Below are positions 6,049 to 59,805 of a stretch of DNA of 64,000 nt, in pieces. The DNA lies in the NCBI GenBank assembly GCA_964487135.1, contig CAZAOU010000001.1, positions 8,542-72,541 on the forward strand. The letters run 5' to 3'. The stretch is from an uncultured Candidatus Saccharibacteria bacterium. GTDB lineage: Bacteria; Patescibacteriota; Minisyncoccia; Phycocordibacterales; CAIRYW01. The position numbers and the translations under genes are program-made. Every line of letters begins with the position of its first letter. The first letter of the stretch is position 1. A model generated the notes under the pieces. It was not told the DNA's origin and did not search any database. It saw nothing but the letters and a program-made list of their open reading frames with translations.

Positions 6049-6071
6049 TCGGCTTCATGCCGATTTTTTTA
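6049..6071 (+). terminator. rho-independent terminator (cggc-ttcat-gccg followed by T7)
   Basis: hairpin immediately after stop codon 6042-6044, followed by a T-run. Confidence 0.4.
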
Positions 6072-6671
6072 TACAAAATTTTTTAAAACTTCAAAATCTT
6101 TTTTAAGAGTTTCTTTAAGGTGTTGGTTGTAGATTGCAGCGGCAGGATGATAAAAAGGAATTATTTTTATCTTTCCATAATTAGTGTTTGCTTCGTATTG
6201 TTTTCCGTGTGCAACAGAGATAGGTTCTATATCTAAAAACAGTCCAAATTTTTCCATGATGTATTGCATAGAAAATCTGCCTAATGTCGCAATAATTTTT
6301 GGTTGAATTATTTCTATTTGTTTATCTAAAAACGGTCCGTAAGAGGATATTTCTGTAGGGCTTGGATCACGATTTTCTGGGGGTCTGTCTTTTACAATAT
6401 TTGTTACATATACATCTTCTCGTTTTATTCCTGCATGTGCTAAAAGTTCATCTAAAAATTTTCCTGATGCGCCACAAAAAGGTTTTCCATTTTTAGCTTC
6501 GTTTTTGCCGGGAGCTTCGCCGATAAACATTATTTTAGAAAAATGACTTCCCTCGCCTATGACCGGAAAATAATTATTTTCTTTGCGAAATTTATATAAA
6601 GGCAAAAATTCTGCCACCAAAAGTTCATCGCGAATTTTTTTTAGTTCATTAAATCGCTCGTCTTTATTCAT
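6069..6671 (-). CDS. uracil-DNA glycosylase, family 4
   Basis: motifs FIGEAPGKNEAKNGKPFCGASGKFLDELL and HPAAAIYN are typical of the UDG family 4 / SPO1 pol-related group. Confidence 0.8.
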   Translation of the reverse strand: MNKDERFNELKKIRDELLVAEFLPLYKFRKENNYFPVIGEGSHFSKIMFIGEAPGKNEAKNGKPFCGASGKFLDELLAHAGIKREDVYVTNIVKDRPPENRDPSPTEISSYGPFLDKQIEIIQPKIIATLGRFSMQYIMEKFGLFLDIEPISVAHGKQYEANTNYGKIKIIPFYHPAAAIYNQHLKETLKKDFEVLKNFV

Positions 6672-6798
6672 CCCGTTAGAAATCAGAAATGTTAGACATT
6701 TCCAACCTTATACTAAGTTTTGCTAATAATACTTTATTTATACTCACTCTTATATTTTTTAACAAGTTCGTAACCGAACAATTTCTAACGGGATTCAT

Positions 6799-7233
6799 TT
6801 AAAATTTTTCGTAAACAATTTTTAAAACAGCATGACCATCTTTGATGATTGGAAGTTTGAGAGCTTCTTCTTTTGTAGCCCATTTGTATTCAGAATGTTT
6901 CTCATCTCGGAGTTTAATTTCTGGGATTTTATCTATTGGATATACAAAAATATCGTATTCAAAATCATATTCAGAATAACGCACATAAAAGCTTTCAATG
7001 AAAGACAACCTGTTTGATTCGAGATATAAACTTGTTTCTTCAAGCACTTCTCGTAACAATGCTTCTTCTTTCGACTCGCCTTCTTCTATTTTTCCTCCTG
7101 GCGCTTGCCACTTTTCTCCTTCAAATTTATTTTTGTTTCTTTTCAGTAATAAATGCTTATTTCCACAGACAATCAAGCATCCAACAGCTCTTAATTTAGG
7201 ATTAAAATCATCTGGTTTTTTATCTAGAATCAT
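6799..7233 (-). CDS. Nudix hydrolase
   Basis: Nudix box GGKIEEGESKEEALLREVLEETS. Confidence 0.8.
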   Translation of the reverse strand: MILDKKPDDFNPKLRAVGCLIVCGNKHLLLKRNKNKFEGEKWQAPGGKIEEGESKEEALLREVLEETSLYLESNRLSFIESFYVRYSEYDFEYDIFVYPIDKIPEIKLRDEKHSEYKWATKEEALKLPIIKDGHAVLKIVYEKF

Positions 7234-7748
7234 AAATAATTATTTTTATATTCTTTTATAAATGCAATATGCGCTCTCGTGTTAAAGCATGAGTGATAAG
7301 CATCAAAAGAGAGAGTGTGGAGTTGTTTCTCTAATATAGATAAAACCTCATCAATGTCATACCAAAAAACCTCTATTCCTTCCTCATCTTTTAATATTGT
7401 GGTTGGAGAGCCTTTATTACCAACAACCTTACAAACAAAGCCGTGAATTACTTGGTGGGTGCCATGCTTTGTTCTGAATTCGTCACTTACACCCAATTCT
7501 TGAAGTATTGAAACCTCACATCCAATTTCTTCTTTCATCTCTCTGTGTAATGCTTCTTCAAGCGATTCACCTTCCTCCACACCTCCTCCAGGAAGATGAA
7601 AGTTTTTTACACGGACTAAAGCTAATTTATTTTCTGAATCAAATACAAGAGCCTTAACCCTTGAAACCTCTTTATAGACTTCAGGTTCTGGTGTAAGAAG
7701 ATTTTCTGGAAAAATATCTTTATCGCTTTGCTGTAAGATTGTTTTCAT
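7230..7748 (-). CDS. Nudix hydrolase (second, adjacent)
   Basis: Nudix box GGGVEEGESLEEALHREMKEEIG; 4-nt overlap with the downstream Nudix gene. Confidence 0.8.
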   Translation of the reverse strand: MKTILQQSDKDIFPENLLTPEPEVYKEVSRVKALVFDSENKLALVRVKNFHLPGGGVEEGESLEEALHREMKEEIGCEVSILQELGVSDEFRTKHGTHQVIHGFVCKVVGNKGSPTTILKDEEGIEVFWYDIDEVLSILEKQLHTLSFDAYHSCFNTRAHIAFIKEYKNNYL

Positions 7749-12110: not shown

Positions 12111-13145
12111 TTACTTGCTAAGAGAGTATCTTCCTTCTTTATCTTTTTTGAAATGTTTAGCGTTTTGTAAATTTACTAAAATTGTATTTTCTTTCACGTA
12201 CCTTTCCTTAAGAACTTTATCTATTATTTCGTCTTTAGTAAGAGGACCGTTTTTTTCTAGTATTTTTACAATCACATCCTTTACCACGCCGTTTAGGTAG
12301 CCCCATTCTGAAAGCGCATACAAACCTCTTCCAACAAGAACAAACCTAGGATCCTTTATGAGTTCATTGTGGGTTGTAGCTATATGAGCTTTTTTACTGA
12401 AAAGTTTTTCTATTGATTTTGCTACTTCTTTGAAATGAATTGGTGAGCCGTGTTTTCTGATTGCCAAATACGCGTAGTCTCTAATACCTTTAACTGAGAC
12501 ATTTTTTGAGTGAGCAACACCCCATTCCCCAAGAGGATTTCTATTAACCTTTTTTGATATAGAAAGCCATCTTTTTAGAATTTCTTCCGTTTTGTATTCC
12601 TGATTAACATCCTCTAGATGTTTTAAGAATTTTTCAAGCATTTCTGATTCAGGCAATAATTCATCGTCAGCAAGAGATTTATAGAGTTTTTTTATTGCTT
12701 CCTCTACTTTTTTTGCGTGCGCTTCGTTTGTATGCCATCTATGCTTAAAATCATCGTCCTCTTTAAATTTTTTGAAAGGTTCTCCTACGACGAGTAAAAA
12801 GTGGATAGCATTTTGAAGGGCTTTATCTTTCGGAGCAACATGATTTAAAAAATCTTCCTCAGAAATAAAACTTCCAAGCGCATCAACAATTTTTCTTACC
12901 TCATCAAAAATCACAACAGATTCTTTGTATGTTTTTGATTTTCTAATATTTGTTATAGATGCGTTTTCAATTTGTCTGACTCGCTCTCTTGTTATTCCAT
13001 ATGTGTCACCAATACCTTCAAGAGTCATCTTTGAAGAGCTTTTTCCTAAGCCGTATCTAGAAGAAAGAATATCTCTTCCGCGTGAAGGCAGTGCCTCAAG
13101 GAGTTTTTTTACAATTATTTTTGGTTTGAAGCTAAAATTTGCCAT
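12111..13145 (-). CDS. HTH protein with a sigma-70 region-4-like motif
   Basis: LEGIGDTYGITRERVRQIENASI resembles sigma70 region 4.2; the rest is uncharacterised. Confidence 0.4.
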   Translation of the reverse strand: MANFSFKPKIIVKKLLEALPSRGRDILSSRYGLGKSSSKMTLEGIGDTYGITRERVRQIENASITNIRKSKTYKESVVIFDEVRKIVDALGSFISEEDFLNHVAPKDKALQNAIHFLLVVGEPFKKFKEDDDFKHRWHTNEAHAKKVEEAIKKLYKSLADDELLPESEMLEKFLKHLEDVNQEYKTEEILKRWLSISKKVNRNPLGEWGVAHSKNVSVKGIRDYAYLAIRKHGSPIHFKEVAKSIEKLFSKKAHIATTHNELIKDPRFVLVGRGLYALSEWGYLNGVVKDVIVKILEKNGPLTKDEIIDKVLKERYVKENTILVNLQNAKHFKKDKEGRYSLSK

Positions 13146-13215: not shown

Positions 13216-16083
13216 CTAATTTACCACAAAATTAACAATTCGTCCTTTAACCACAATGGTTTTTAGGATATTTTTACCCAATAAATACTCCCTTATAGCT
13301 GGATTTTCTGATGCAATTTTGGATACTTTTTCGTCAGGAAGTTTTGGATCAATAGAAATAGTTCCTCTAGTTTTTCCATTAACCTGAATGGCTATGGTTA
13401 CTGTGTCTTTTTTCAGTAATTTTTGGTTAACTTTTGGCCATTTTGATGAATAAATGAAGTTTTTATTTCCTAATAAATGCCATATTTCATCTGTAATATG
13501 TGGAGCGAATGGTGAAAGAAGTTGTAAAAAACTCGTAAATGATTTTTTGGAAATAGAGTTTTGTTCGTAAACTTTATTAACAAAAATCATCATACTGGAT
13601 ATTGCAGTATTAAAAGAAAAATTTTCTATATCTTCTTCAACTTTTTTAATTGTTTTATTTAATTCCACAGTTAGTTCTTCAGATTCTTTTTTTGTAATAA
13701 AGTTTTGTATGTTCCAAACTTTATCTAAAAATCTTCTAGAGCCAATCATATTGTCTGTAGACCAAGCAATACCTGAACCAAAAGGCCCCATAAACATTTC
13801 GTATACTCTGAGTGTATCTGCGCCGTATTGATTTATCACATCATCTGGATTAACGACATTTCCATATCTTTTACTCATTTTTCTACCATCCTCAGCTGCA
13901 ATTAATCCTACAGAATGAAGTCTTTCAAAAGGTTCTTTTGTGGAAACAAGTTTCTCGTCATATAAAAATTTATGCCAAAAACGAGCATATATTAAATGTC
14001 TTGTTGCGTGCTCAGCACCTCCAACATAAAGAGATACTGGCATGAATTTTTTTTCTTTTTTTGCATCTACAAAAACTTTTTTATTTTTAGGATCAATAAA
14101 TCTTAAATAATACCAGCTACTTCCTGCCCATTGTGGCATTGTGTTTGTTTCGCGTTTTGCCTTACCTTTGCATTTGGGACATTTTGTATTAACCCATTTT
14201 TGAATTGCTGCCAAAGGAGACTCCCCTGTCCCTGTCGGTTCATAGTTTTTTACTTTTGGAAGTGTAACGGGTAAATCTTTTTCAGGCACAGGCACCACTC
14301 CACACTTTTCGCAATGAATTACAGGAATCGGTTCGCCCCAGTATCTTTGCCGTGAAAATACCCAATCACGAAGTTTATAATTTGCTTTTTTCTTTGCCAG
14401 ACCTTTTTCTTCAAGCCATGAAATTATTTTTTGCCGTGCTTCTTCTGAAGTTAAGCCATTAAATTGTTCTGAATTACACAAAATTCCCTCTCCGGTAAAA
14501 GGTTTTGGATTAATATGTTGCTCCCAAATAAATTTTAGATCCTCTACGTTCAAAAAATCTTTCACTTTTTCTTTTTCTATCCAATGGATATTGTGTATTT
14601 CTTTTTCTGTCTCAGAAATTTCGTCTTGCTCGCCGTTTTGAAGTGTAAAAACCAAAGATGGAAAATGCCCGAAGCGATTTATATTTTTTAGTGGATGATA
14701 AAATTTAGAATGAACAACACCAGACAATTCTTTAGACAACTGTATATTTTTGTATCCCGTTTCTTCTTTTATTTCTCTTATTGCCGCCTCAATAGCTGAC
14801 TCACCGTCATCAATTCCACCCATTACAAAACCTTTCCAATTTGTTTTTTTCCAAGCTAGACAAAGATATTTATCTTCTGCCCAGTGTTTTACAATGGCTA
14901 CCACTGCCGGTCTTTCAACAAAAGATAATTCTTCTCTGACAGCGTCCACACCAGTTTTTTGAATAAAAAGAGGTTCAATTGAAGTCTTGAGAGGAATATT
15001 ATATTTTTTGGCCATTTCATAATCTCTTTCATCATGAGCGTCAGCAAAAACCGCTCCCGTACCGTAGTGACCAAGGACAAAATCAGAAATCCACACCGAC
15101 ATTTCTTCATTTGTTGCAGGATTAATTGCAATAACACCTTTTAGTTCAACCCCTTCTTTATTATTTTTTTCAGTTCTTTCAATTTCTGTCCTATTTTTTA
15201 TTTTTGCTAAATATTTTTCAATTTCTGATTTGTTTGAAATCTCGGACTTAGAATTTAAAATTTCTTGTATCAATGGATGTTCTGGCGCAAGAACAATAAA
15301 GGTTCCTGAAAAAATAGTATCTATTCTTGTGGTGTAAACTTTTATTTCTTTTGTTTCTGTAAATTGGTTTGGCTTTATTTTAAAAATAACTTCAGCTCCT
15401 TCGCTTTTTCCAATCCAGTTTCTCTGAGATTCTTTTATTGAATCTGACCACTTAGGAAGTAATTTTAAATCATTGAGCAATTTCTCTGCGTAGTCGGTAA
15501 TACGAAGAGTCCACTGTCGCATTGGTTTTTTTTCTACAACACTTCCACATCGTTCACATTTTCCGTCCTCTAAATCTTCATTCGCAAGACCTGTTTTGCA
15601 ACTCGGACACCAGTTTATTGGTTCATATGCTTCATATGCCAGACCTTTTTTATACATCTGCAAAAAAATCCATTGTGTCCATCTATAGTATTCTGGATCA
15701 GAGGTAACAATTTCTCTATCCCAATCATAATTAAACCCAATAATAGATAGTTGATCTCTAAATCTTTTGATATTTTTCTTTACGGAAATATCTGGATGTA
15801 TTTTATTTTTTATTGCGTAATTTTCTGCTGGTAGACCAAATGAATCAAAACCCATTGGATGCAATACATTAAAACCAGACATTTTTTTGTATCTAGAATA
15901 TATGTCAGTTGCTATATATCCTTTAGGATGACCAACGTGAAGACCTTCTCCCGAAGGATATGGGAACATATCAAGAACGTAGCAGAATTTTTTTCCTTTG
16001 GCCTCAGTGGTTTTATATATTTTTTTTCTATCCCACTCTTTTTGCCATTTTTTTTCTATTTTTTTTGGATCGTAGCGTCTCAT
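13216..16083 (-). CDS. leuS: leucyl-tRNA synthetase with an inserted Nudix hydrolase domain
   Basis: HIGH (PYPSGEGLHVGHPKGY) and KMSKS (KMSKRYGN) motifs; editing motifs TTRIDT and GTGAVFADAHDERDYEMAKKY; the inserted segment at aa ~388-515 carries a perfect Nudix box GGIDDGESAIEAAIREIKEETGY. Confidence 0.9.
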   Translation of the reverse strand: MRRYDPKKIEKKWQKEWDRKKIYKTTEAKGKKFCYVLDMFPYPSGEGLHVGHPKGYIATDIYSRYKKMSGFNVLHPMGFDSFGLPAENYAIKNKIHPDISVKKNIKRFRDQLSIIGFNYDWDREIVTSDPEYYRWTQWIFLQMYKKGLAYEAYEPINWCPSCKTGLANEDLEDGKCERCGSVVEKKPMRQWTLRITDYAEKLLNDLKLLPKWSDSIKESQRNWIGKSEGAEVIFKIKPNQFTETKEIKVYTTRIDTIFSGTFIVLAPEHPLIQEILNSKSEISNKSEIEKYLAKIKNRTEIERTEKNNKEGVELKGVIAINPATNEEMSVWISDFVLGHYGTGAVFADAHDERDYEMAKKYNIPLKTSIEPLFIQKTGVDAVREELSFVERPAVVAIVKHWAEDKYLCLAWKKTNWKGFVMGGIDDGESAIEAAIREIKEETGYKNIQLSKELSGVVHSKFYHPLKNINRFGHFPSLVFTLQNGEQDEISETEKEIHNIHWIEKEKVKDFLNVEDLKFIWEQHINPKPFTGEGILCNSEQFNGLTSEEARQKIISWLEEKGLAKKKANYKLRDWVFSRQRYWGEPIPVIHCEKCGVVPVPEKDLPVTLPKVKNYEPTGTGESPLAAIQKWVNTKCPKCKGKAKRETNTMPQWAGSSWYYLRFIDPKNKKVFVDAKKEKKFMPVSLYVGGAEHATRHLIYARFWHKFLYDEKLVSTKEPFERLHSVGLIAAEDGRKMSKRYGNVVNPDDVINQYGADTLRVYEMFMGPFGSGIAWSTDNMIGSRRFLDKVWNIQNFITKKESEELTVELNKTIKKVEEDIENFSFNTAISSMMIFVNKVYEQNSISKKSFTSFLQLLSPFAPHITDEIWHLLGNKNFIYSSKWPKVNQKLLKKDTVTIAIQVNGKTRGTISIDPKLPDEKVSKIASENPAIREYLLGKNILKTIVVKGRIVNFVVN

Positions 16084-16105: not shown

Positions 16106-16660
16106 TTAGTCTTTAAATTTTTTGATTGCTAGATAAATAAGTGACGCCAGAGCAATAGCAAGTATTACAACTTTAAGCAACTGATCTGCTAAAGACCAAA
16201 ATCTTATTGAAGCAACAACAAAAGATAAGACTCCTCCTATAGATAAAGATAGAGATAAAACCTCAACACCTTTTATAAATACTCCTGCAACGATAGAAAG
16301 CACACCCAAAACTACTAACGTTATAAATACATTTTTTTCGTATTCTTTCTGTGCTTCTTGATAGTTTTTGCTACAAGTAAAATATTCGTCACAATATCCT
16401 TTTGGAACTGATTTTTCTCCAGGTAGAGGAGCGTAAGTATTTTCATTCCAAGAACCTCCCACAGCAAGACATTGAGCTTGATCTGTTATAGCTTCTCTAA
16501 CTTGTTTGGTAGGACAAAATCTTTCATATTCAGGAGCGCTATATATCAGTGAAAGTGAGTAATTAAAGAAAAGATTTAAAACAATAACTATTCCAATAAT
16601 CAAAGACCACTTAATAGTTTTAGATTTTTTATTTTGATTATTAACTTCTATATTTTCCAT
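16106..16660 (-). CDS. hypothetical membrane protein
   Basis: 184 aa; N-terminal TM helix and two C-terminal TM helices. Confidence 0.35.
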   Translation of the reverse strand: MENIEVNNQNKKSKTIKWSLIIGIVIVLNLFFNYSLSLIYSAPEYERFCPTKQVREAITDQAQCLAVGGSWNENTYAPLPGEKSVPKGYCDEYFTCSKNYQEAQKEYEKNVFITLVVLGVLSIVAGVFIKGVEVLSLSLSIGGVLSFVVASIRFWSLADQLLKVVILAIALASLIYLAIKKFKD

Positions 16661-16683: not shown

Positions 16684-17781
16684 TTATACTCTAAATTCAA
16701 TAACGTCACCGTCTTTAACTATATATTCCTTTCCCTCAACTCTTAATTTTCCTGTTTCTCTTGCCTTAGCAAAAGAACCTAACCCTATAAGTGTATCAGA
16801 AGCAACAACTTCGGCACGAATAAATTTTTCGCGAAAGTCAGTGTGGATCGCCGCCCCTGCAACTGGCGCAGAAGAATTCTTTTTTATAGTCCATGCACGA
16901 GTTTCTTTTTCGCCTGTTGTAAAATAAGTTTCAAGTCCCAGAAGATCATAGGCGGTTCTTATAAGGTTATTTATTCCATCATCTTTAATTCCGAGCTCGG
17001 TTCTAAAGATGTTTTTCTCTTCCCCTTCCATATCTTTTAGATCGTGTTCGATTCCTGCATCTACCAATACCCACTTAGCGTTTTCGTTTTTTAGAAATTC
17101 TTGTAGTTTTTGCCATCTTTCATCATTTAATTCATCCAAGTTTTTTGCACCACTTTTTTTGTTGAGAATATACATCAGAGGTTTTAGCGTCAGAAGATTT
17201 AAACTTTTTATTACTTCTTTTTCTTCCTCTGTTACATTTGCTTTTGATGCTAAATTTCCTTTTTCGAGTTCAATAATTATTTTTTCTAAAATACCTTTTT
17301 CAATTAGGGCGTTTTTCTCGCCTTTTTTCATTTCTCTTTCAAGAGAACCTAGCCGTTTTTTTACTGTATCCATATCTGCCAAACCAAGTTCAATATTTAT
17401 TACAGAAATATCGTGCATCGGATCAACATTTCCAGCTACATGAATTACATCTGGATCATCAAAAATTCTAACCATTTCTGCAATGGCATTTACCTCTCTA
17501 ATATGAGAAAGGAATTTGTTGCCTAGTCCTTCGCCCTCTGAAGCTCCTTTTACGAGGCCAGCAATATCAACAAATTCAACGACCGCAGGGATTGTTTTTT
17601 GAGTTTTGCTTAGTTCTGAGAGTTTCCACAGTCTTTCATCAGGTACAGGGACAACACCGACAGAAGGATCTATTGTGCAAAAAGGATAATTTTCGGCAGG
17701 AACACTTTTTTTTGTTAAAGCATTAAAGAGTGTTGATTTGCCAACATTTGGGAGTCCAACAATTCCAATTTTTATTTCCAT
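16684..17781 (-). CDS. ychF: ribosome-binding ATPase YchF (Obg family GTPase)
   Basis: G1 motif [23 protein letters not shown]; C-terminal TGS-like domain. Confidence 0.9.
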
Positions 17782-31525: not shown

Positions 31526-32104
31526 TTATTTTATCAGCTTTAAACGTCGTAGTCTAGAAATATTAATAGTGCCTTCTCTCTCAACCCTAAAGCCAATTTT
31601 TGGGTTATGGGAGAGAATTGTTGAAGGGGTGGTCTTTGTTCTTCCTGAAGTATAAAAATCAACCTGTGAGCCAAAATAAGCCTTTGCCGCAAGAACTCCC
31701 CTGGCAGGTGGCATTCCTTCAATATTAGCGCTTGGTGCTACCAACGGACCCGTTTTCGCAATAAGACTCTTTAATTTCTTGTTTTTAGGAAGACGAAAAC
31801 ACAAAGTTTTAGTTCCTCGGTGTAAATATTCAAATTTCTTAGATTGAACAGGAAAAATAATTGATACTGGCCCTGGCCATAATTTTGAAAGCTCTTTTGG
31901 AACATTTTTTACTCCAAATTTTTTAATGTCATCAATTTTAGAAATAAGAATAATAAATGGCTTAAGGGGATTTCTTTTTCTTACTTTATATATTTTCTCA
32001 ACTGTTTTTTTATTTTCTGCCTTCCCCACTAAACCAAAAATAGTGTCGGTCGGCATAACACCAATTCCCCCTTTTTTAATAATAGAAATTATTTCTTTTT
32101 TCAC
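31526..32104 (-). CDS. tsaC: L-threonylcarbamoyladenylate synthase (YrdC/Sua5 domain)
   Basis: GGIGVMPTDTIFGLVGKAENKKTVEKIYKVRKRNPLKPFIIL is the YrdC signature. Confidence 0.8.
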   Translation of the reverse strand: MKKEIISIIKKGGIGVMPTDTIFGLVGKAENKKTVEKIYKVRKRNPLKPFIILISKIDDIKKFGVKNVPKELSKLWPGPVSIIFPVQSKKFEYLHRGTKTLCFRLPKNKKLKSLIAKTGPLVAPSANIEGMPPARGVLAAKAYFGSQVDFYTSGRTKTTPSTILSHNPKIGFRVEREGTINISRLRRLKLIK

Positions 32105-34320
32105 ACCCTCATAATACGGAAAGTTCCAAATCCTGCAAGAATAAGACCTATAATAATTAATAATTTGGAATACAATTCTTTCGGTAGGGCTACAGAGGAA
32201 ACCCCAGCAACAAGTTCAGTATTTTTTATTGGTAAAGTAGTGCTAGCTGTTAAAGAGTCTTCTATTTTTTTTGAGTCCTCTGCGCCCAATACATCTCCAA
32301 CAAATTCATCCTCCTCAGTATTATTAGAAATAATATTTTTAATTTCTGGTGTAGTTGTTGAAGCAAAAGAAATTATAGTTGAAGTGGCTGATGTAGAGCT
32401 TGCAACACCAACAATTTCGCCACCCACTGTATTATTAATTACAGTATTCTGCTTAGAAACATTCTGCAAAATAGTGTCCCAAGTTTTTCCTGAAACAGCA
32501 GGAACAGCATAAGAAGTAGCCCAGATTCTATTGTCAGTTGTTTCTGTAGCATCCTTCATTCCACCATCTGATTGTTGTTTACTCCACAGATAGTCAAACG
32601 AATTATTTCCACTTTTCAAAATAGTTTCAGGATTATTTTCTAAAGCATAAAGACCCAAAACAAACCAAGCCGTTGAAGAAACAGGATCGACATTTCCAAA
32701 AGATCCGTCGTTATTTTGACTAGCTATCACCGCCTGAGAAAGATTTGCTTTTGCAGAATCTGCACCAGAATTTGAAATAAGTGATAACGCCTGCAAAGTA
32801 GCCCCAGCAGTATCAGGATCATTAATATTAGATATATTATTTAGAACGACTTCACCGGCCTTTTTTATAATATCTTCATCAGCCTCAAAGCCAACATTTC
32901 TTAAAACCAAAATTCCAAAAACATCATCATTAAACAGTCCTGCCTCGCCTATTTGATTACCGTCAAAGGAAGAAACTGTTTTGGAAATGTAATCTATAGG
33001 ACCATCAGAATAAGGATTTAAACCGAGTGCAAGCATTGCCATGACTCGTCTTTCATAATCAGTCACCGCACTTCCATCAAGAGAATCTGTTTTTAGAAAT
33101 TCTCTTAATTTATTTTTTGCATCATCATGCCCAGTTGATGCTCCGTATGCAATTGACGCCCAGTCGGTATACAAATCTGCCCCAAAACTTCCGTCAGTTT
33201 TTTGTTTTGAATCAAGAAAAGTGAGTAAAGTTTCAAGGTTGGGTTTATTGTGCGAAATTCCCCCTCCACCACCACCTGAATTATTTGTATTAGATTCTGT
33301 AGTTGTAGAAGTAGAATCTGTAGATGTTGCAGAAGAAGTTGCAACAAAATCAACAATATCGTAAGACCAAGTTGGATAATAATAATCATCCTTAAAACCA
33401 AAATAATAAGTACTTGTTGCTATCAAAGAAAACGATGACTGACCCAAAGAATCTGTTGTTGATGTAGCAACTTCAATTGGAGACCAAGGATTACTTGGAT
33501 CAGGTAAAGTTGCCCCTACAACACTTCCATCAATAGGTATCCAAGTATTGTCACTGTAACTGTATCTTTGAGCTTCAATTTTAAAAGTTGTATTAGTGGT
33601 TGTAGCAACATCAGGAACAACTATCCTTTTTGAATAACCAAAATAAAGATAAATTGTATCTCCGTTAGAAACAGAAACATCATCAACACCAACGTATGGA
33701 TAAGTGTCATTTACAACATACTGCCAGTTATAACATTCATTAGATCCCAAAGAAGCTATGTTGATACAATTTATAATAAATGAATCAAATGATGAATAAT
33801 ATGCTAAGTCAGAAATATTTAATTCTTCACTTAAAGCATCGGCTATAGACACTAAAGAAAGAACACTGCTAGAAGGAATGGATCGGGCTGTTCCAGTATT
33901 ATCCGTAACATCAATGTTTGGTGTCTCGGGCAAATCAACCACATCATCAAAAACAATATTTTCTCCATGTCTAACGATCACCCTAACACCTTGAGTGGTT
34001 GAAGAAGTTGATTCAGAAGAAAATGAGCTTGTTTCAGTTAATTCTTCAGTAGTTGTCGCTAAATTTATTTCTGGCTCTGTAATAATTTCTTCTGTAGTGG
34101 TTGAATTATCATTTTCTTCAATAATCCCTTGAGTCTCGGTGTTGTCTTCAACGGTTGAAGTTTCTAACCCTGAATCATTACTGTCAGTAACCACTTCTTC
34201 TGAGGAATTAGTTGTGTCAGTTTCAATAACAATCTCTTCATCAGCAAAAACAAATATTGGATTTAAAATCAAAATACCAACAACAGTAATTCCTATAAAT
34301 TTTTTAATAATTTTTTTCAT
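32101..34320 (-). CDS. large secreted, C-terminally anchored surface protein with Thr/Ser-rich linkers and prenyltransferase/squalene-oxidase-like repeats
   Basis: signal peptide MKKIIKKFIGITVVGILILNPIFVFA; acidic T/S-rich stretches and a poly-Gly run; repeated DGSFG/DGGM alpha-toroid-like motifs; C-terminal hydrophobic anchor. Confidence 0.5.
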   Translation of the reverse strand: MKKIIKKFIGITVVGILILNPIFVFADEEIVIETDTTNSSEEVVTDSNDSGLETSTVEDNTETQGIIEENDNSTTTEEIITEPEINLATTTEELTETSSFSSESTSSTTQGVRVIVRHGENIVFDDVVDLPETPNIDVTDNTGTARSIPSSSVLSLVSIADALSEELNISDLAYYSSFDSFIINCINIASLGSNECYNWQYVVNDTYPYVGVDDVSVSNGDTIYLYFGYSKRIVVPDVATTTNTTFKIEAQRYSYSDNTWIPIDGSVVGATLPDPSNPWSPIEVATSTTDSLGQSSFSLIATSTYYFGFKDDYYYPTWSYDIVDFVATSSATSTDSTSTTTESNTNNSGGGGGGISHNKPNLETLLTFLDSKQKTDGSFGADLYTDWASIAYGASTGHDDAKNKLREFLKTDSLDGSAVTDYERRVMAMLALGLNPYSDGPIDYISKTVSSFDGNQIGEAGLFNDDVFGILVLRNVGFEADEDIIKKAGEVVLNNISNINDPDTAGATLQALSLISNSGADSAKANLSQAVIASQNNDGSFGNVDPVSSTAWFVLGLYALENNPETILKSGNNSFDYLWSKQQSDGGMKDATETTDNRIWATSYAVPAVSGKTWDTILQNVSKQNTVINNTVGGEIVGVASSTSATSTIISFASTTTPEIKNIISNNTEEDEFVGDVLGAEDSKKIEDSLTASTTLPIKNTELVAGVSSVALPKELYSKLLIIIGLILAGFGTFRIMRV

Positions 34321-34807
34321 ATTTCCACTCAATAACATCACCCTCTTTTAATATGTAAGAAGAAACTCCGACAGTCGCCTCCTTTCCATTTATGTAATAA
34401 ATCCACGAATAACCGTTTTCTGCTTTTTTACCGTTTATTTCTTCCACCATAGTTCCTAAACCACTAAATTCTTTACCCCTAAAAAACAAAATTCCTTCAT
34501 TTTTTGCTATTGTGAGTGAATCAAGTAATGTATCTCCTGCTGTAAATTTTAAAGAAATTGTTTTTCCTTCGATAATAGTGTCTGCGTGAAGATAATTTAT
34601 TTTTTTGTCAGAAGCTTTTTTTATTTCTGTAGGTTTTGGGGTATTTTTAAAATCCTCATACGTTTCCTCATAATTGGAATTAACTTCTACGGATTGAGCA
34701 ACTTCATCTTTTTTAAAAAACAAAAATCCACCCCAAACAATCAAAATAATTCCAATAATAATTGAAGTTTTTTCTATTAATTTTTCTTTTTTGATTACTA
34801 TTTTCAT
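34304..34807 (-). CDS. DUF4430-domain protein (membrane-anchored)
   Basis: N-terminal TM helix; C-terminal GYSWIYYINGKEATVGVSSYILKEGDVIEWKY matches the DUF4430 beta-grasp signature; start at MKIVIKK. Confidence 0.6.
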   Translation of the reverse strand: MKIVIKKEKLIEKTSIIIGIILIVWGGFLFFKKDEVAQSVEVNSNYEETYEDFKNTPKPTEIKKASDKKINYLHADTIIEGKTISLKFTAGDTLLDSLTIAKNEGILFFRGKEFSGLGTMVEEINGKKAENGYSWIYYINGKEATVGVSSYILKEGDVIEWKYEKNY

Positions 34808-35018
34808 ACAACAAAAAAAACCGCCCGTCCAAAGCAGTTTCAAAATTTATTTTGCTATAAAAATTATTAGCAAAATATTTTCCTGCTCGGGATAATAAAG
34901 ATTTTCTAAAGATCGGACTTGTTTTGCTAAATTGCAAACTTTACCGTTGCGGCACAGCGGAGGAATCAAACCTCACTTCCATAGAAAACCTATTTACGAA
35001 TCAATGAACAATAATACT

Positions 35019-35604: not shown

Positions 35605-36162
35605 TTATATCTCTGTCATTTTTATAATTTCAGATAATACTTCAGGAAGAGTTGTAAAACCACTTCTTCCATTGAGATGACCTCCATTTTTTATTATTGT
35701 AAGTGAAGCGCCAAGATTTTTAGACAGAAATTCTGCGTCAGAAAGAGGAACAAGTGGATCATTATCTCCATGAATAACTGCAAATTTGTTCACCTTTGAT
35801 TTTATTGCTTCAAAATCAAAATCTTTTTCTAGAAAAACATTTACTTTTTCATTATCTGTTTTATGTGCTGGCCCAGAAACCAAAACAACCCCTTTCACAT
35901 TCTTAGCAGATGTTTTTTCAAGAAATCGAAGAATTGCAGGCACACCAAGACTATGCCCTACTAGAAAAATCTCATCATTTTGATTTCTTTCAACGTGTCT
36001 TTCAATCTCTTCTACCCATTCGCTACAAACTGGAGTTTCAGGACTTGGCATTGATAGAGCGCAAGCATAAACATCTTTTTTCTCAAGCTCACCCATAAGA
36101 TAAGGGCGCCATCCCCCATTTGGACTCCCTTCAAAACCATGAACAATAAAAACTTTTTTCAT
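35605..36162 (-). CDS. alpha/beta-hydrolase, YdeN/RBBP9-like serine hydrolase
   Basis: MKKVFIVHGFEGSP...; nucleophile elbow GHSLG; ...HGDNDPLVP...GGHLN. Confidence 0.6.
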   Translation of the reverse strand: MKKVFIVHGFEGSPNGGWRPYLMGELEKKDVYACALSMPSPETPVCSEWVEEIERHVERNQNDEIFLVGHSLGVPAILRFLEKTSAKNVKGVVLVSGPAHKTDNEKVNVFLEKDFDFEAIKSKVNKFAVIHGDNDPLVPLSDAEFLSKNLGASLTIIKNGGHLNGRSGFTTLPEVLSEIIKMTEI

Positions 36163-36179
36163 GGGAATAATATAACATA

Positions 36180-36965
36180 GTGGCTTACCAAAATCTCTTT
36201 TGGTATGATGTCTTTATTATGAAAAGACGAATATACATAAGTTTATTAGTGCTTGTTGTAGCGATAGTTGTTTTATTAACTATTTTTCCTAAAACCACCT
36301 CCCATATTGAATTAACAACTCCAAATAATAAAGAAAATATATCTGAAAATAATTCCAACACTTCATCTACAACAGATTCTGCAACAAAATTAGTTTTATC
36401 AAAACCTCAGAGCCCTGAATGGGAAGTTTTTCAAAAATATATTACTTTTGCTAAAAACCATGATTTGGAAGGAATAAAAACACTTTCATACCAAATTTCA
36501 GAAACTTGCAAAGATAAAAATTTAGAAAAACAGTGTTTTGCTTTGATGGACAATGTGTATCAGATCGGCTCAAATCTCAAAGAATCAAACTATGTAAACA
36601 AATGGTCTGATGGCAAACAAATAATAATCTCAACAAATCCTGTTAAAAAAACTGAGGGAGATAATGTTGGATATCAGCAAGGTTTTATTATTTTCACAAA
36701 AGATAACTCGGGAAATTTAAAACTTTTAGGGTTAGATCCATACAAAAGTGTTTATTTGTCTAAAAAAGATTTCTCGGCAACGGAATTAGAAACAAGACTA
36801 AAAGCAATGCTTGCCGATAGTGATAAAGATGGACTGTATGACGAAGAAGAAAATTGTTCTGGAATATATTCAAATCCTAAATGCATAAAAACTAATCCAA
36901 ACAAAAGAGATTCTGATGGCGATGGTTGGTGGGATAGAATAAATTCTCTGTTTTATAAAAATTAA
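36180..36965 (+). CDS. secreted hypothetical protein with C-terminal DxDxDG calcium-binding-like repeats
   Basis: TM/signal segment RIYISLLVLVVAIVVLLTIF; DSDKDGLYDEE and DSDGDGWWD motifs. Confidence 0.4.
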   Translation: MAYQNLFWYDVFIMKRRIYISLLVLVVAIVVLLTIFPKTTSHIELTTPNNKENISENNSNTSSTTDSATKLVLSKPQSPEWEVFQKYITFAKNHDLEGIKTLSYQISETCKDKNLEKQCFALMDNVYQIGSNLKESNYVNKWSDGKQIIISTNPVKKTEGDNVGYQQGFIIFTKDNSGNLKLLGLDPYKSVYLSKKDFSATELETRLKAMLADSDKDGLYDEEENCSGIYSNPKCIKTNPNKRDSDGDGWWDRINSLFYKN

Positions 36966-36988
36966 ATAGAGGTTAGATAAAAAAATGC

Positions 36989-37024
36989 GCGCCAGCCGGA
37001 CTTGCGTTCGGCTGGCGCTTTTTT
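36989..37024. terminator. GC-rich bidirectional intrinsic terminator (gcgccagccg-10 nt-cggctggcgc, T6)
   Basis: 10-bp perfect stem followed by tttttt on + and attttttta on the reverse complement; marks the left edge of GC-rich island D. Confidence 0.55.
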
Positions 37025-37046
37025 ACATAGGCGATTTTGGTTGGTC

Positions 37047-38159
37047 TTAACCCCGACGATCCTTCCCGAGGAACACGACTCTCGGGCAAACCACTGTGGG
37101 ATTCTGGAAGTAAACGTTCGGCTGAATTAGCGCGTCCGTTGCATCTTTCCAGATCCAGTTTTGCGGTGAAAACTTCATCGTAACCGTCGGCGGATTCTTC
37201 AGGTTGTAGTAGCTGAAGGTTCCAGTAATTCCGAAGGATGTTACCCCTTCTTCGTAGTAGAGTTTTACCCCAGGAAACGTCACCTTGATACGATCGCCGG
37301 CGAGTTTAAACTGGGGCTTCACAGGTTTTGTTCCGGGAATAATTACCCCGTTACTGTCGGTAATCGCGACGTTAGTCAGCCCACTGAGGAGCTTCGAGTC
37401 GGCGACACTGAACCACAACTCAAACTCCATGTTCTCGCTGTGCACCTGCATATTCTCAACATTGACGGAAATCACCCCGAGCGTAACTCGGCGACCACCA
37501 ACCTTGAGGTAGTCAACCATCGGCGGAACGATACTTTGCCCTGCCTTGACCTGAACTCTCCCGCGCGGATAGTAGCCTGATACCACAGTGTGATAATTCC
37601 CCACCGTGCTCGCGTTATACATCCACCAGATCTCTGTGTTGTCGTCAGCGTCGAGGTAGTTCAAACTGACTCGAATTGTCTCACCGCCGTGTTGATATGC
37701 ACGACCACCCACGAGTCCGTAGACGACGTAGGATTGGTAAGCACCGTTCGGACGAATGAGATCATCCTGAATCGGCAGGACGAATTCGCCTTGCTGACCG
37801 GAAATAATCGGGAGTCGCCCCACGACTTTTTCTTTGATGTCGTGAACTTCCTGAACCTCGCCGTTTTTGTCGACAACTGCTTTTACGGTGTCATCTTGAG
37901 CGACAGCGACCAGGGCATCGAAAACTTCCGCGGGCCCACTGATGTTGAGGTGGAGAGCCGAGACGTCGCTCGGCCCAGTTCCGATTCCGTGATGAATCCG
38001 GAGAACCTCACCGAGGGTTCCGGGAACGAGATTGGTGCTCGGCAATTGAGCCCCCTCAAGGATTTCGATGTGGACTTTCGCCAACACCTGGTTGGGCGTG
38101 GCGATTAGGGCGAAGATCGTCGCGAAGGCGACGATCATAACAGACTTCAGTTGCTTCAT
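37047..38159 (-). CDS. secreted hypothetical protein of GC-rich island D
   Basis: GC-rich codons; signal peptide MKQLKSVMIVAFATIFALIATPNQVLA (start at 38159; the longer ORF runs to 38231); beta-rich, no known motif. Confidence 0.45.
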   Translation of the reverse strand: MKQLKSVMIVAFATIFALIATPNQVLAKVHIEILEGAQLPSTNLVPGTLGEVLRIHHGIGTGPSDVSALHLNISGPAEVFDALVAVAQDDTVKAVVDKNGEVQEVHDIKEKVVGRLPIISGQQGEFVLPIQDDLIRPNGAYQSYVVYGLVGGRAYQHGGETIRVSLNYLDADDNTEIWWMYNASTVGNYHTVVSGYYPRGRVQVKAGQSIVPPMVDYLKVGGRRVTLGVISVNVENMQVHSENMEFELWFSVADSKLLSGLTNVAITDSNGVIIPGTKPVKPQFKLAGDRIKVTFPGVKLYYEEGVTSFGITGTFSYYNLKNPPTVTMKFSPQNWIWKDATDALIQPNVYFQNPTVVCPRVVFLGKDRRG

Positions 38160-38377
38160 AGGAAAAACCGGCTTGTTAGCCGGCGTAGTTTTTTTTGCTT
38201 TGGGTTTTTCGTTTAACCTAAGGCTGTCCATTCGCAGGCAACAAGCTTTCGCTTATGCTTTTGTAAAGTACAACAAAAAACTGCCATTCAGCAGTTTTCC
38301 TAGGTTGTTGCGATTATAGCATACTTTTATAAATATGTAAATACTTAACTCTCCAACCCTTAGGTTAATTAAAATAA

Positions 38378-38406
38378 TTGACAAAACCTAATATAAATTT
38401 TATAGT
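38378..38406 (+). promoter_or_regulatory. near-consensus sigma70 promoter TTGACA-17-TATAGT in the AT-rich divergent spacer of island D
   Basis: -35 at 38378-38383, exact 17-nt spacer, -10 at 38401-38406; drives the 38514 gene. Confidence 0.5.
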
Positions 38407-38513
38407 ACACAAACGTTCTTTCCAGATTAAGACCAAAAGCCGAGTGGCCAAGGTTATCATCCTGCAAAGACCAAACAAGACCGAAAACAAACAGAAACCA
38501 CCGTATCAACCGT

Positions 38514-39095: not shown

Positions 39096-39120
39096 ACCGT
39101 CCTCAAGTCTATCTGACATC

Positions 39121-39154
39121 TACCCAAGCCCCTAAAGCTTGGGTAGAATTTTTA
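39121..39154 (+). terminator. intrinsic terminator after the island D gene (tacccaagc-ccctaaa-gcttgggta, then gaattttta)
   Basis: 9-bp stem followed by a T-run 25 nt after the stop. Confidence 0.4.
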
Positions 39155-39170
39155 TACTAAAAAGTATTTA

Positions 39171-58872: not shown

Positions 58873-58942
58873 TTTTTCTTTAATTACAGAGAATTATTTT
58901 ACCTTTTTAAATAATTAATGAAAGCCGAGAATACACACACCT

Positions 58943-59801: not shown

Positions 59802-59805
59802 CAAC

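What the first reader, a model, noticed from the sequence alone, without database searches (positions are those of the whole stretch)
14539..14922. Complete Nudix hydrolase domain inserted inside the editing (CP1) region of leucyl-tRNA synthetase
LeuRS retains HIGH, the TTRxDT and GTGAV..AHDxRDYE.AKKY editing motifs and KMSKS. Between AKKYNIP and the conserved ..NSEQFNGL segment it carries ~130 extra residues with a perfect Nudix box GGIDDGESAIEAAIREIKEETGY (GX5EX7REUXEEXGU; nt 14752-14820). A pyrophosphohydrolase module fused into the hydrolytic editing domain of an aaRS is not a standard architecture. It could hydrolyse mischarged aminoacyl-adenylates, Ap4A made by the synthetase, or tRNA caps. 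Two stand-alone Nudix genes lie 7 kb away, so this lineage appears to have expanded and recombined Nudix modules.
Basis: partly seen in the sequence, partly recalled or inferred. Interest (0 to 1): 0.7.

Follow-up and report, generated by a model that had tools for sequence, protein, structure and literature searches.

The report
Nudix hydrolase built into leucyl-tRNA synthetase
The leucyl-tRNA synthetase in this window really does carry a complete, apparently active Nudix pyrophosphatase inside its proofreading domain, and this turns out to be a widespread but seemingly undescribed habit of Patescibacteria (CPR) bacteria, whose tRNA synthetases have repeatedly recruited one dedicated Nudix family.

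Summary

It is neither an artefact nor a one-off. 116 of the 120 closest LeuRS proteins, and 79 of the 80 best species-representative genome loci (272 matched), carry it at the same site. All named sources are Patescibacteria. The catalytic glutamates are 97-100% conserved, and dN/dS (0.02-0.06) is as low as for the synthetase core.

Relatives carry up to three copies at two sites, plus alpha/beta-hydrolase and HAD inserts. The closest relative (75% identical) has a plain loop instead and encodes the Nudix as a separate gene 4 nt upstream of leuS. A second clade does the same (3/3). One ProRS carries the same family.

The two neighbouring stand-alone Nudix genes are unrelated, so the "local recombination" idea fails.

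The nearest solved structures include several ApnA hydrolases and RNA-decapping enzymes. The best guess (about 0.4) is clean-up of Ap4A-type by-products of aminoacyl-adenylate chemistry. The substrate is untested. I found no paper describing this architecture.

The parts
13216..16083 (-). leuS ORF: 955-aa bacterial-type leucyl-tRNA synthetase hosting the Nudix domain
   Evidence: ORF list; TIGR00396 leuS_bact 1011.6 bits; 744 bits to T. thermophilus LeuRS 1h3n; AF2 full-length model pLDDT 88.7, pTM 0.78
14974..16083 (-). LeuRS residues 1-370: N-terminal Rossmann half and the first part of the CP1 editing domain, up to ...AKKYNIPLKTSIE
   Evidence: Aligns to Tth LeuRS 1-363; PF13603 residues 221-371
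15928..15939 (-). HIGH signature (HVGH, residues 49-52)
   Evidence: H49, G51 and H52 invariant in 68 orthologues
15316..15333 (-). Threonine-rich editing motif TTRIDT (residues 251-256)
   Evidence: T251, T252, R253, D255 and T256 at least 90% conserved
15016..15063 (-). Editing-site motif GTGAVFADAHDERDYE (residues 341-356), including the universally conserved editing Asp (D351)
   Evidence: G341, T342, G343, A349, H350, D351, R353 and D354 invariant in 68 orthologues
14500..14973 (-). Inserted module, residues 371-528: Nudix domain with its own N-terminal strand/linker (PLFIQKTGVDAVREELSFVER) and C-terminal helices. It replaces a ~13-residue CP1 surface loop
   Evidence: Gap in the alignment to Tth LeuRS 364-376; same span 50-55% identical to free-standing Nudix proteins P0001 and L002:8041-8550; P0004 has a ~18-aa loop here
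14548..14907 (-). Pfam NUDIX domain match (residues 393-512)
14752..14820 (-). Nudix box GGIDDGESAIEAAIREIKEETGY (residues 422-444), with catalytic/metal-binding E437, E440 and E441
   Evidence: Regex match; across 116 site-C copies E437 100%, E440 97%, E441 100%, G422/G423/G443 98-99%
14674..14703 (-). Family-specific 'X-loop' segment FYHPLKNINR (residues 461-470): conserved aromatic pair followed by K466, N469 and R470. Probable substrate (polyphosphate/base) contact region
   Evidence: F461 85%, Y/F462 94%, K466 93%, N469 96%, R470 90% in 116 copies. The role of this region in specificity comes from the Nudix review PMC5389931; its assignment here is an inference
13219..14499 (-). LeuRS residues 529-955: end of CP1 (GILCNSEQFNGL...), second Rossmann half with the KMSKR loop (13867-13881), anticodon-binding and C-terminal domains. 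The leucine-specific domain is absent
   Evidence: Aligns to Tth LeuRS 377-579 and 628-876, with Tth ~580-627 unmatched; PF00133 and PF08264

Best explanation
The segment is a genuine, selectively maintained and almost certainly catalytically active Nudix pyrophosphohydrolase. It belongs to a Nudix family so far seen only in Patescibacteria-type genomes, and the only non-Nudix fusion partners identified for that family are aminoacyl-tRNA synthetases. In this window the domain is spliced into a surface loop of the LeuRS CP1 editing domain. The aminoacylation and editing motifs are undisturbed, so the protein is a bifunctional LeuRS/Nudix enzyme.

The most likely job of the Nudix module is to hydrolyse polyphosphate-bridged dinucleotides (Ap4A and other Ap3-6N), and perhaps the Np4 RNA caps derived from them. 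Synthetases make these compounds as side products when an NTP attacks the enzyme-bound aminoacyl-adenylate. On this view the module is a built-in clean-up and nucleotide-recycling device placed next to the source.

Shown here: the domain identity, its fold, conservation of the catalytic residues, purifying selection, lineage-wide distribution, repeated recruitment by synthetases, and the fusion/fission pairs with leuS. Inferred: the substrate class and the in-cis coupling.

For: Active-site conservation: E437 100%, E440 97% and E441 100%, plus family-specific R391, K466, N469, R470 and W501 at 90-100% in 116 copies.

Purifying selection: dN/dS 0.015-0.058 in the embedded domain versus 0.03-0.125 in the rest of LeuRS, from three pairs, two of them with saturated dS. 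The split-off gene has dN/dS 0.10.

Distribution: 116 of the 120 nearest LeuRS proteins carry it at this site. In the genome scan, 272 species-representative genomes matched, and 79 of the 80 best loci have it embedded in LeuRS. The family comprises 172 clusters at 50% identity with E <= 1e-30.

Link to synthetases:
- The same family is inserted at a second LeuRS site, once or twice in tandem.
- It is inserted in a complete ProRS gene, P0232 in L089, 37% identical with the catalytic residues kept.
- Of the 15 top-150 representatives with extra sequence that did not match LeuRS by phmmer, 14 were scanned with Pfam. Eight carry a LeuRS editing-domain segment, one is the ProRS, one has a weak class-II anticodon-binding-domain match (P0174, 18.9 bits, below cut-off), two are multi-Nudix proteins, and two have N-terminal extensions with no Pfam match. 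No non-aaRS partner was identified.
- The closest LeuRS relative (75% identical, syntenic contig) has a plain loop and encodes the Nudix (55% identical to the insert) 4 nt upstream of leuS.
- An independent clade has the free Nudix directly upstream of leuS in 3 of 3 members examined.

Substrate class: the nearest solved structures include Tth Ndx1 Ap6A hydrolase, M. tuberculosis Rv2985 ApnA hydrolase, Aquifex and Chlamydia Ap4A hydrolases, E. coli RppH (including its Ap4A complex), the AvrM14 decapping enzyme and DIPP1/Ddp1. An aromatic residue is conserved in the X-loop, where ApnA hydrolases carry their marker tyrosine. aaRS are the main cellular source of Ap3-5N (review PMC7705103).
Against: - No biochemical data exist.
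- The RppH NCBIfam models score 27-29 bits against cut-offs of 116-118 bits.
- LeuRS and ProRS are not, to my knowledge, the strongest Ap4A producers. The review consulted does not single them out.
- Four free-standing family members from three lineages are not next to any synthetase gene. The leuS adjacency in the other two lineages could therefore partly reflect recent fission history rather than selection.
- The same LeuRS loop can hold an unrelated ~120-aa insert (L088). Relatives also carry alpha/beta-hydrolase and HAD inserts, so LeuRS is generally permissive to insertions.
- I could not obtain model coordinates, so the position of the Nudix active site relative to the LeuRS sites is unknown.
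Confidence: 0.4

Rival explanations
1. House-cleaning Nudix riding in a permissive loop. The domain is an ordinary sanitising or nucleotide-salvage pyrophosphatase (for example for damaged NTPs or ADP-ribose). Its fusion to LeuRS only secures co-expression with an abundant essential protein in a small genome. There is no mechanistic coupling to aminoacylation or editing.
For: - Free-standing family members occur away from any synthetase gene in three lineages.
- LeuRS relatives also host alpha/beta-hydrolase and HAD domains at other sites, and an unrelated ~120-aa insert at this very site. This shows the loops tolerate cargo.
- P0004 works without the covalent link.
Against: - One particular Nudix family, and not the two other Nudix genes present in this same window, was recruited at least three times: LeuRS site A, LeuRS site C and ProRS.
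- No non-synthetase fusion partner was identified among the top 150 family representatives. Two short N-terminal extensions remain unassigned.
- When split off, the gene stays directly upstream of leuS in two independent clades, 5 of 5 loci.
Confidence: 0.25
2. RNA 5'-end pyrophosphohydrolase or decapping module. The Nudix acts, like RppH, NudC or Dcp2, on the 5' end of an RNA held by the synthetase. It would convert a 5'-triphosphate or a nucleotide cap (NAD, Np4) on tRNA or another RNA to a monophosphate.
For: - E. coli RppH, including RNA-bound forms, is among the best Foldseek hits.
- The best sequence-profile hit in the PDB is the mRNA-decapping effector AvrM14, followed by NUDT12/NudC and Dcp2.
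- Both hosts (LeuRS and ProRS) bind tRNA, and the tRNA 5' end lies beside the 3' end that enters CP1 (general tRNA geometry, my knowledge).
Against: - Mature tRNA 5' ends are monophosphates made by RNase P, so no obvious substrate exists.
- Scores to the RppH models are far below their cut-offs.
- Free-standing members need no RNA-binding partner.
- No RNA-binding extension is evident in the 164-residue module.
Confidence: 0.15
3. Helper for pre-transfer editing. The Nudix hydrolyses released non-cognate aminoacyl-adenylates (Nva-, Ile- or Met-AMP for LeuRS; Ala-AMP for ProRS).
For: Both host enzymes are editing synthetases that form non-cognate adenylates (established aaRS biochemistry, my knowledge). 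The module sits inside the editing domain in LeuRS.
Against: - Aminoacyl-adenylates are acyl-phosphate mixed anhydrides, not the pyrophosphate-linked NDP-X compounds Nudix enzymes cleave. The enzymes known to me to hydrolyse aa-AMP are HIT proteins (my knowledge).
- The LeuRS post-transfer editing site is fully intact, so no deficit needs filling.
- In ProRS the module is not in an editing domain.
Confidence: 0.08
4. Non-catalytic module. The Nudix fold serves as a structural brace, a tRNA- or protein-binding surface, or a nucleotide sensor that regulates LeuRS.
For: - The second tandem copies at site A have lost E428 (76% Gln) and mostly lost R436, which is Arg in only 11%.
Against: In the site-C copy, which is the one in this window, the full box is intact. 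The three metal-binding glutamates are 97-100% conserved over 116 sequences that are only ~43% identical overall. That pattern is typical of active enzymes.
Confidence: 0.07
5. Assembly chimera or sequencing artefact joining a Nudix gene into leuS.
For: None beyond the unusual architecture.
Against: The reading frame is continuous. The same junctions occur in more than 100 independently assembled genomes and metagenomes. Junction residues are modelled at pLDDT >= 90. The domain is under purifying selection.
Confidence: 0.005

Closest known systems
Canonical bacterial LeuRS (T. thermophilus 1H3N/2BYT; E. coli 4AQ7/4ARC)
   Same: Full-length homology (744 bits to 1h3n). HIGH and KMSK(R) signatures, the CP1 editing domain with the T-rich and GTG...AHD motifs, and the anticodon-binding and C-terminal domains are all present.
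   Different: A 158-residue Nudix module replaces the ~13-residue loop after the ...KYxxPxK helix of CP1. The leucine-specific domain (Tth ~580-627) is absent.
Nudix ApnA hydrolases and the RppH/DIPP/decapping group (Tth Ndx1 1VC8, M. tuberculosis Rv2985 9CXX, Aquifex 3I7U, Chlamydia CT771 4MPO, E. coli RppH 4S2X/7SP3, AvrM14 8DP8, DIPP1 7TN4)
   Different: Only 14-24% identity. The RppH family models score 27-29 bits against cut-offs of 116-118 bits. The family has its own signature (R391, K399-H400-W401, K466-x2-N469-R470, W501). It is embedded in, or encoded next to, a synthetase. Its activity is untested.
E. faecalis Nudix protein 2AZW (UniProt Q836H1)
   Different: 21% identity. It is free-standing, from a Firmicute, and its function is listed as undetermined, so it gives no functional transfer.
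Synthetases with extra catalytic domains (for example IleRS with a GNAT domain, NCBIfam NF040702; cis and trans editing domains such as ProRS INS, AlaX and YbaK)
   Same: An accessory enzymatic domain is covalently added to an aaRS. Fusion/fission between cis domains and free-standing homologues is also seen for editing modules (NF040702 appears; the rest is my knowledge).
   Different: Here the passenger is a pyrophosphohydrolase of the Nudix superfamily, not an acyl-ester editing or acetyltransferase domain. It is inserted inside CP1 rather than appended. I found no report of such an architecture.
LysRS - Ap4A - NUDT2 axis of animal cells, and RppH/ApaH removal of Np4 caps in E. coli
   Same: A synthetase-made dinucleoside polyphosphate is destroyed by a dedicated hydrolase. 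NUDT2 and RppH are Nudix enzymes (PMC7705103; PMC7044304 and PMC4856261 listed).
   Different: Those partners are separate proteins with no genomic or physical linkage known to me. Here the two activities would sit in one polypeptide or one operon. The analogy is functional and unproven.

Membership tests
Nudix hydrolase superfamily (PF00293) | Nudix box GX5EX7REUXEEXGU | tested here: met
   GGIDDGESAIEAAIREIKEETGY at residues 422-444 matches every fixed position; PF00293 scores 52.1 bits against a 21.1-bit cut-off.
Nudix hydrolase superfamily (PF00293) | Alpha/beta/alpha sandwich fold with the box on a loop-helix-loop | tested here: met
Nudix hydrolase superfamily (PF00293) | Divalent-cation-dependent hydrolysis of a nucleoside diphosphate-X substrate | not testable with these tools
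   Supported only indirectly, by 97-100% conservation of E437, E440 and E441 and dN/dS of 0.02-0.06.
Bacterial leucyl-tRNA synthetase (TIGR00396 leuS_bact) | Full-length match above the curated cut-off, with HIGH and KMSKS class I signatures | tested here: met
   1011.6 bits against a 548.4-bit cut-off; HVGH at 49-52 and KMSKR at 735-739.
Bacterial leucyl-tRNA synthetase (TIGR00396 leuS_bact) | CP1 editing domain with the T-rich peptide and the conserved Asp of GTG...AHD | tested here: met
   TTRIDT at 251-256 and GTGAVFADAHDERDYE at 341-356. D351 is invariant in 68 orthologues. PF13603 scores 175 bits, split by the insert.
Bacterial leucyl-tRNA synthetase (TIGR00396 leuS_bact) | Leucine-specific domain between the second Rossmann half and KMSKS (present in E. 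coli and T. thermophilus, not universal) | tested here: not met
   Tth residues ~580-627 have no counterpart in the query. This is a lineage feature, not a disqualifier. Solved LeuRS of 637 and 822 residues (3ziu, 5ah5) are also shorter than the ~880-residue standard enzymes.
RppH (RNA pyrophosphohydrolase, NCBIfam PRK00714 equivalogs) | Score above the curated equivalog cut-off | tested here: not met
Nudix ApnA (diadenosine polyphosphate) hydrolases | Conserved tyrosine in the loop downstream of the Nudix box that stacks on adenine (PMC5389931) | tested here: inconclusive
   An aromatic pair F461/Y462 lies 17-18 residues after the box. Position 462 is Tyr in 61% and Phe in 33% of 116 copies. 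Equivalence to the marker Tyr was not checked by structural superposition because no coordinates were available.
Nudix ApnA (diadenosine polyphosphate) hydrolases | Hydrolysis of Ap4A-Ap6A | not testable with these tools
   Several ApnA hydrolases are among the top structural hits, but at 16-22% identity.
Intein or other mobile insertion | Hint/homing-endonuclease domains or splice-junction residues | tested here: not met
   The only non-synthetase Pfam family on the protein is NUDIX. The insert is stable at one site across hundreds of species.

The most novel reading that the evidence does not exclude
Patescibacteria possess a dedicated 'synthetase-associated' Nudix family that forms a previously unrecognised layer of aaRS chemistry control: destruction or recycling of adenylate-derived by-products (Ap_nN, Np4 caps), or of a tRNA-linked nucleotide. 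The family has been wired into LeuRS at two sites and into ProRS, or kept in a leuS operon. LeuRS in these organisms would then have become a multi-hydrolase platform (up to three Nudix domains plus alpha/beta-hydrolase and HAD modules) whose extra activities act in cis with aminoacylation and editing.
Probability: 0.3. Interest if true: 0.8.

Novelty: new variant of a known kind. Interest (0 to 1): 0.66.

Why it matters
Aminoacyl-tRNA synthetases are among the best-studied enzymes, and the CP1 editing domain of LeuRS is a drug target and a textbook proofreading module. A catalytically intact pyrophosphohydrolase living inside CP1 in hundreds of species went unnoticed because the genes are simply labelled 'leucine--tRNA ligase'.

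If the Nudix acts on synthetase by-products, this would be the first natural case I know of in which an aaRS carries its own Ap4A/NpnN-degrading activity. It would give a clean experimental handle (one polypeptide, separable by point mutation) on the long-debated question of whether synthetase-made dinucleoside polyphosphates are signals or waste.

It also bears on CPR biology. These organisms have minimal genomes and limited nucleotide synthesis, yet they invest 150-700 extra residues of hydrolase domains in an essential enzyme.

A practical point: free-standing members of the family are being mis-annotated as 'leuS' in GenBank.

Tried and rejected
- **Mis-assembly or chimera:** rejected. The frame is continuous, the same junctions occur in more than 100 assemblies, and dN/dS is low.
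- **Origin from the two neighbouring Nudix genes (6799-7233, 7230-7748):** rejected. Only Nudix-box similarity, 26-28 bits.
- **The 184-aa ORF between ychF and leuS in the window (16106-16660) as a remnant of the upstream Nudix gene seen in L002:** rejected. No similarity.
- **Insert-only search of the 5.8-billion-protein database:** returned a single hit, because the word index and coverage filter hid the LeuRS hosts. The full-length query was needed.
- **The search for related loci with the diverse alignment A2:** failed because no conserved stretch was found. It was repeated successfully with the closer set A3.
- **Universal leuS adjacency of free-standing members:** tested and not met. Four loci from three lineages lie elsewhere.
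- **afdb50 fold search:** library unavailable.
- **Geometry of the Nudix cleft relative to the editing and synthetic sites:** not obtainable, because model coordinates are not exposed.
- **Literature:** six differently worded searches found no description of a Nudix-containing aaRS. The Nudix-clan review never mentions tRNA synthetases.


Full report
**1. The observation**

The minus-strand ORF at 13216-16083 encodes a 955-residue protein. It matches the bacterial LeuRS equivalog TIGR00396 at 1011.6 bits against a 548-bit cut-off. It also aligns over its whole length to T. thermophilus LeuRS (1h3n, 744 bits).

Pfam finds a NUDIX domain (PF00293, 52.1 bits, E 8.8e-14) at residues 393-512, between two halves of the LeuRS editing domain PF13603. 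The sequence GGIDDGESAIEAAIREIKEETGY (residues 422-444, nt 14752-14820) fits GX5EX7REUXEEXGU at every fixed position. HVGH, TTRIDT, GTGAVFADAHDERDYE and KMSKR are all present.

In the alignment to 1h3n, query residues 371-528 stand where the Thermus enzyme has residues 364-376. The extra material is therefore about 145 residues, in a CP1 surface loop just after the ...AKKYNIPLK helix.

AlphaFold models are confident:
- Full-length model: pLDDT 88.7, pTM 0.78, with the insert and both junctions at 90-96.
- Isolated module: pLDDT 96.3, pTM 0.90, with the secondary-structure order of a Nudix alpha/beta/alpha sandwich.

**2. Not an artefact and not a one-off**

A full-length search of 5.8 billion proteins returned 120 listed LeuRS relatives, and nearly all carry PF00293. 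I mapped the three pieces of the window protein onto them. 116 of 120 have a homologous Nudix at the same site ('site C', after residue ~370).

Source names include Paceibacterota, Parcubacteria, Moranbacteria, Woesebacteria and Taylorbacteria, so the feature is widely spread across Patescibacteria/CPR. A scan of one genome per GTDB species with just two peptide patterns found relatives in 272 genomes. Of the 80 best loci, 79 have the Nudix embedded in LeuRS. An exhaustive profile search of 1.84 billion cluster representatives found 172 clusters at E <= 1e-30, which is a sharply bounded family. One such LeuRS (KKP58971.1, Moranbacteria GW2011_GWF1_34_10) has been in GenBank since 2015, named only 'Leucyl-tRNA synthetase'.

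**3. The domain is maintained as an enzyme**

Across the 116 site-C copies, which average only ~43% identity to the window's insert while the LeuRS core averages 62%:
- E437 is 100%, E440 97% and E441 100% conserved.
- G422, G423 and G443 are 98-99% conserved; R436 is 80%; E428 is Glu in 79% and Gln in 15%.
- A family-specific set outside the box is equally constrained: R391, K399-H400-W401, W411, K412, W416, F461, Y/F462, K466, N469, R470, L481, E493, H497 and W501.

For three moderately diverged pairs, dN/dS in the embedded domain is 0.015-0.058 against 0.03-0.125 for the rest of LeuRS. dS is saturated in two of those pairs. The LeuRS editing residues are invariant or nearly so in 68 orthologues, so the host keeps its own hydrolytic editing site.

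**4. A larger pattern in relatives**

Longer relatives (1115-1558 aa) carry further inserts:
- One or two additional tandem Nudix copies of the same family at a second site ('site A', after residue ~207-210).
- A PF06821 serine-hydrolase (alpha/beta) domain after residue ~237-243 or after ~596.
- A HAD_2 domain after ~641.

The second tandem copy at site A has usually lost E428 (76% Gln), and R436 is Arg in only 11%, but it keeps the three glutamates. The window's protein is the simplest member of this series.

**5. Fusion/fission with leuS**

The closest relative by sequence, P0004 (811 aa, 75% identical), shares the odd one-residue deletion in GTGAVFA-DAHD. It has an ordinary ~18-residue loop at the insertion point. 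Its 21-kb contig (L002) is syntenic with the window (ychF, leuS, sigma70_r4/HARE-HTH gene, DUF8128, YceG and others). It encodes a 169-aa Nudix protein ending 4 nt before leuS.

That protein is 55% identical, without gaps, to the whole window insert including the 'linker' PLFIQKTGVDAVREELSFVER. Apart from its sister sequence, its nearest neighbours are embedded site-C copies. A species representative of the same lineage (L047) has the same arrangement. Between the two, the free Nudix gene has dN/dS 0.10, against 0.06 for leuS.

Independently, the free-standing protein P0001 (50% identical to the insert) ends 11 nt before a leuS start. Two other members of its clade (P0301 and P0346, 66-72% identical to P0001) also lie directly upstream of leuS. 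There the LeuRS carries either a divergent, ORF-split Nudix or an unrelated ~120-aa insert at site C.

**6. The counter-check**

The free-standing form is common: about 90 clusters of 155-197 aa. Most of these form their own clades. Four that I looked up, from three lineages, are not near any synthetase gene. Their neighbours are pyruvate kinase, cupin, DUF4015, ABC transporter and DHO_dh/RibD_C genes. leuS adjacency is therefore a feature of two clades and not of the whole family. In the L002 lineage it could partly be a by-product of how the split happened.

**7. A second synthetase host**

I examined the family members with extra sequence.
- P0232 is a complete 643-aa ProRS (PF00587, HGTP_anticodon, ProRS-C_1). 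It carries the same family's Nudix (149 bits to the LeuRS-Nudix profile; 37% identical to the window insert; E437, E440, E441, K466, N469 and R470 retained). The module is inserted where solved ProRS structures have a linker of about 8 residues.
- P0174 pairs the Nudix with a weak class-II anticodon-binding-domain match (18.9 bits, below the 21-bit cut-off).
- Of the 15 top-150 representatives whose extra sequence did not match LeuRS by phmmer, 14 were scanned with Pfam. Eight carry a LeuRS editing-domain segment, one is the ProRS, one is P0174, two are multi-Nudix proteins, and two have unassigned N-terminal extensions. No non-aaRS partner was identified.

By contrast, the two stand-alone Nudix genes in this very window (6799-7233 and 7230-7748) share only the Nudix box with the insert.

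**8. What it probably does**

Structure and profile comparisons place the module away from any characterised enzyme: at most 24% identity among the listed structural matches, and a best PDB profile hit of 35 bits.

The best match, 2azw, has no assigned function. Many of the next hits act on polyphosphate-bridged dinucleotides or caps:
- Tth Ndx1 (Ap6A)
- M. tuberculosis Rv2985 (ApnA)
- Aquifex, Chlamydia, lupin and C. elegans Ap4A hydrolases
- E. coli RppH, including its Ap4A complex
- AvrM14 and Dcp2 (decapping)
- NUDT12/NudC (NAD caps)
- DIPP1/Ddp1

The family conserves an aromatic pair (F461, Y/F462) followed by K466, N469 and R470 in the loop after the box. The Nudix-clan review identifies this region as the 'X-loop' specificity determinant and notes a marker tyrosine there for ApnA hydrolases.

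Synthetases are the main cellular source of Ap3-5N, through attack of an NTP on the aminoacyl-adenylate (review PMC7705103). This is the one chemistry that class I LeuRS and class II ProRS share besides binding tRNA.

My best-supported mechanism is therefore an in-cis (or in-operon) hydrolase for Ap4A-type by-products, and possibly for the Np4 RNA caps derived from them. I put this at roughly 0.4. The rivals are:
- Generic house-cleaning Nudix riding in a permissive loop: 0.25
- RppH-like action on an RNA 5' end: 0.15
- Aminoacyl-adenylate hydrolysis: 0.08
- A non-catalytic role: 0.07

I am about 0.9 confident that the domain is a real, selected, active Nudix tied in some way to synthetases.

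**9. Novelty**

The sequences and their Pfam annotations are public. However, six literature searches, together with the comprehensive Nudix-clan review, turned up no description of a Nudix domain in any aaRS. I classify it as a new variant of a known kind: an aaRS with an accessory catalytic domain, or equally a Nudix fusion. The window's gene is a typical member of a large, undescribed group. A side effect is that some free-standing family members are named 'leuS' at NCBI.

**10. Limits**

- There is no biochemistry.
- Genome-level complementarity between embedded and free copies could not be tested.
- The AFDB fold library was unavailable.
- The number of independent insertion events rests on nearest-neighbour analysis rather than a proper phylogeny.

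Noticed in passing
Relatives P0003, P0005, P0009, P0016, P0020, P0025, P0108 and others: LeuRS proteins of 1115-1558 aa in related Patescibacteria carry up to three Nudix copies (two in tandem after residue ~207-210, one at the window's site). They also carry a PF06821 serine-hydrolase domain (after ~237-243 or ~596) and/or a HAD_2 domain (after ~641). That makes five insertion sites in one synthetase, with the same enzyme types recurring at different sites.
   Followed up: partly
L089:2906-4837 (protein P0232): A complete archaeal/eukaryote-type prolyl-tRNA synthetase carries the same Nudix family (37% identical to the window insert, catalytic residues kept) between its anticodon-binding and C-terminal domains. 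P0174 looks like a fragment of a second such protein, though its anticodon-domain match is weak.
   Followed up: partly
window 13219-14499 (LeuRS residues ~726-730): This LeuRS and its close relatives lack the leucine-specific domain (T. thermophilus residues ~580-627) that precedes the KMSKS loop in E. coli and Thermus LeuRS.
   Followed up: partly
window 6069-7748 (-): Two adjacent, mutually different stand-alone Nudix genes (6799-7233, 144 aa, with a NUDIX_4 hit; 7230-7748, 172 aa, with a weak Nudt16-like hit) sit next to a uracil-DNA glycosylase family gene (6069-6671). This looks like a small nucleotide/DNA sanitation cluster. A Nudix plus UDG neighbourhood also occurs on the syntenic contig L002.
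   Followed up: partly
window 16106-16660 (-): A 184-aa ORF with a hydrophobic, membrane-protein-like sequence and no significant Pfam match fills the slot between ychF (16684-17781) and leuS. In the close relative L002 that slot holds the split-off Nudix gene. The two proteins are unrelated.
   Followed up: partly
P0354, P0355, P0357, P0358, P0219, P0203, P0226, P0213, P0247: A recurrent class of ~273-308-aa proteins consists of the C-terminal ~60 residues of the LeuRS editing domain followed by the Nudix. In the one context seen (P0354) the upstream gene is a metallo-beta-lactamase-fold protein, not leuS. They may be split-LeuRS pieces, free CP1-Nudix proteins or gene-call fragments.
   Followed up: partly
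L088:1774-4506 (LeuRS), residues ~379-498: One LeuRS with a free Nudix gene upstream carries an unrelated ~120-residue insert with no Pfam match at exactly the loop where the window has its Nudix. This shows that the loop accepts different cargo.
   Followed up: partly
P0273, P0276, P0351 (NCBI records, e.g. MDB5245456.1): Free-standing 157-162-aa Nudix proteins of this family are annotated 'leuS' in GenBank, presumably because their best database matches are Nudix-bearing LeuRS proteins.
   Followed up: yes
window 34873-35001 (-), with ORFs 34304-34843 and 32101-34341 (-) and 39171-41498 (-): An AdoCbl (B12) riboswitch (Rfam RF01482, 54.7 bits) lies upstream of two DUF4430-containing genes. 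A B12-dependent class II ribonucleotide reductase (ATP-cone, RNR_Alpha, RNR-II insertion domain) lies about 4 kb away.
   Followed up: partly
window 36001-40000 and 58001-60000: These stretches have G+C of 0.42-0.445 against a window background of ~0.34. No rRNA or other Rfam family matches there, and several ORFs (36180-36965, 37047-38231, 38369-38890) have no Pfam match. Possibly foreign DNA.
   Followed up: no
window 12111-13145 (-): The gene immediately downstream of leuS encodes a 344-aa protein with sigma-70 region 4 and HARE-HTH domains. The same leuS-neighbour pairing is conserved on the syntenic contig L002.
   Followed up: no
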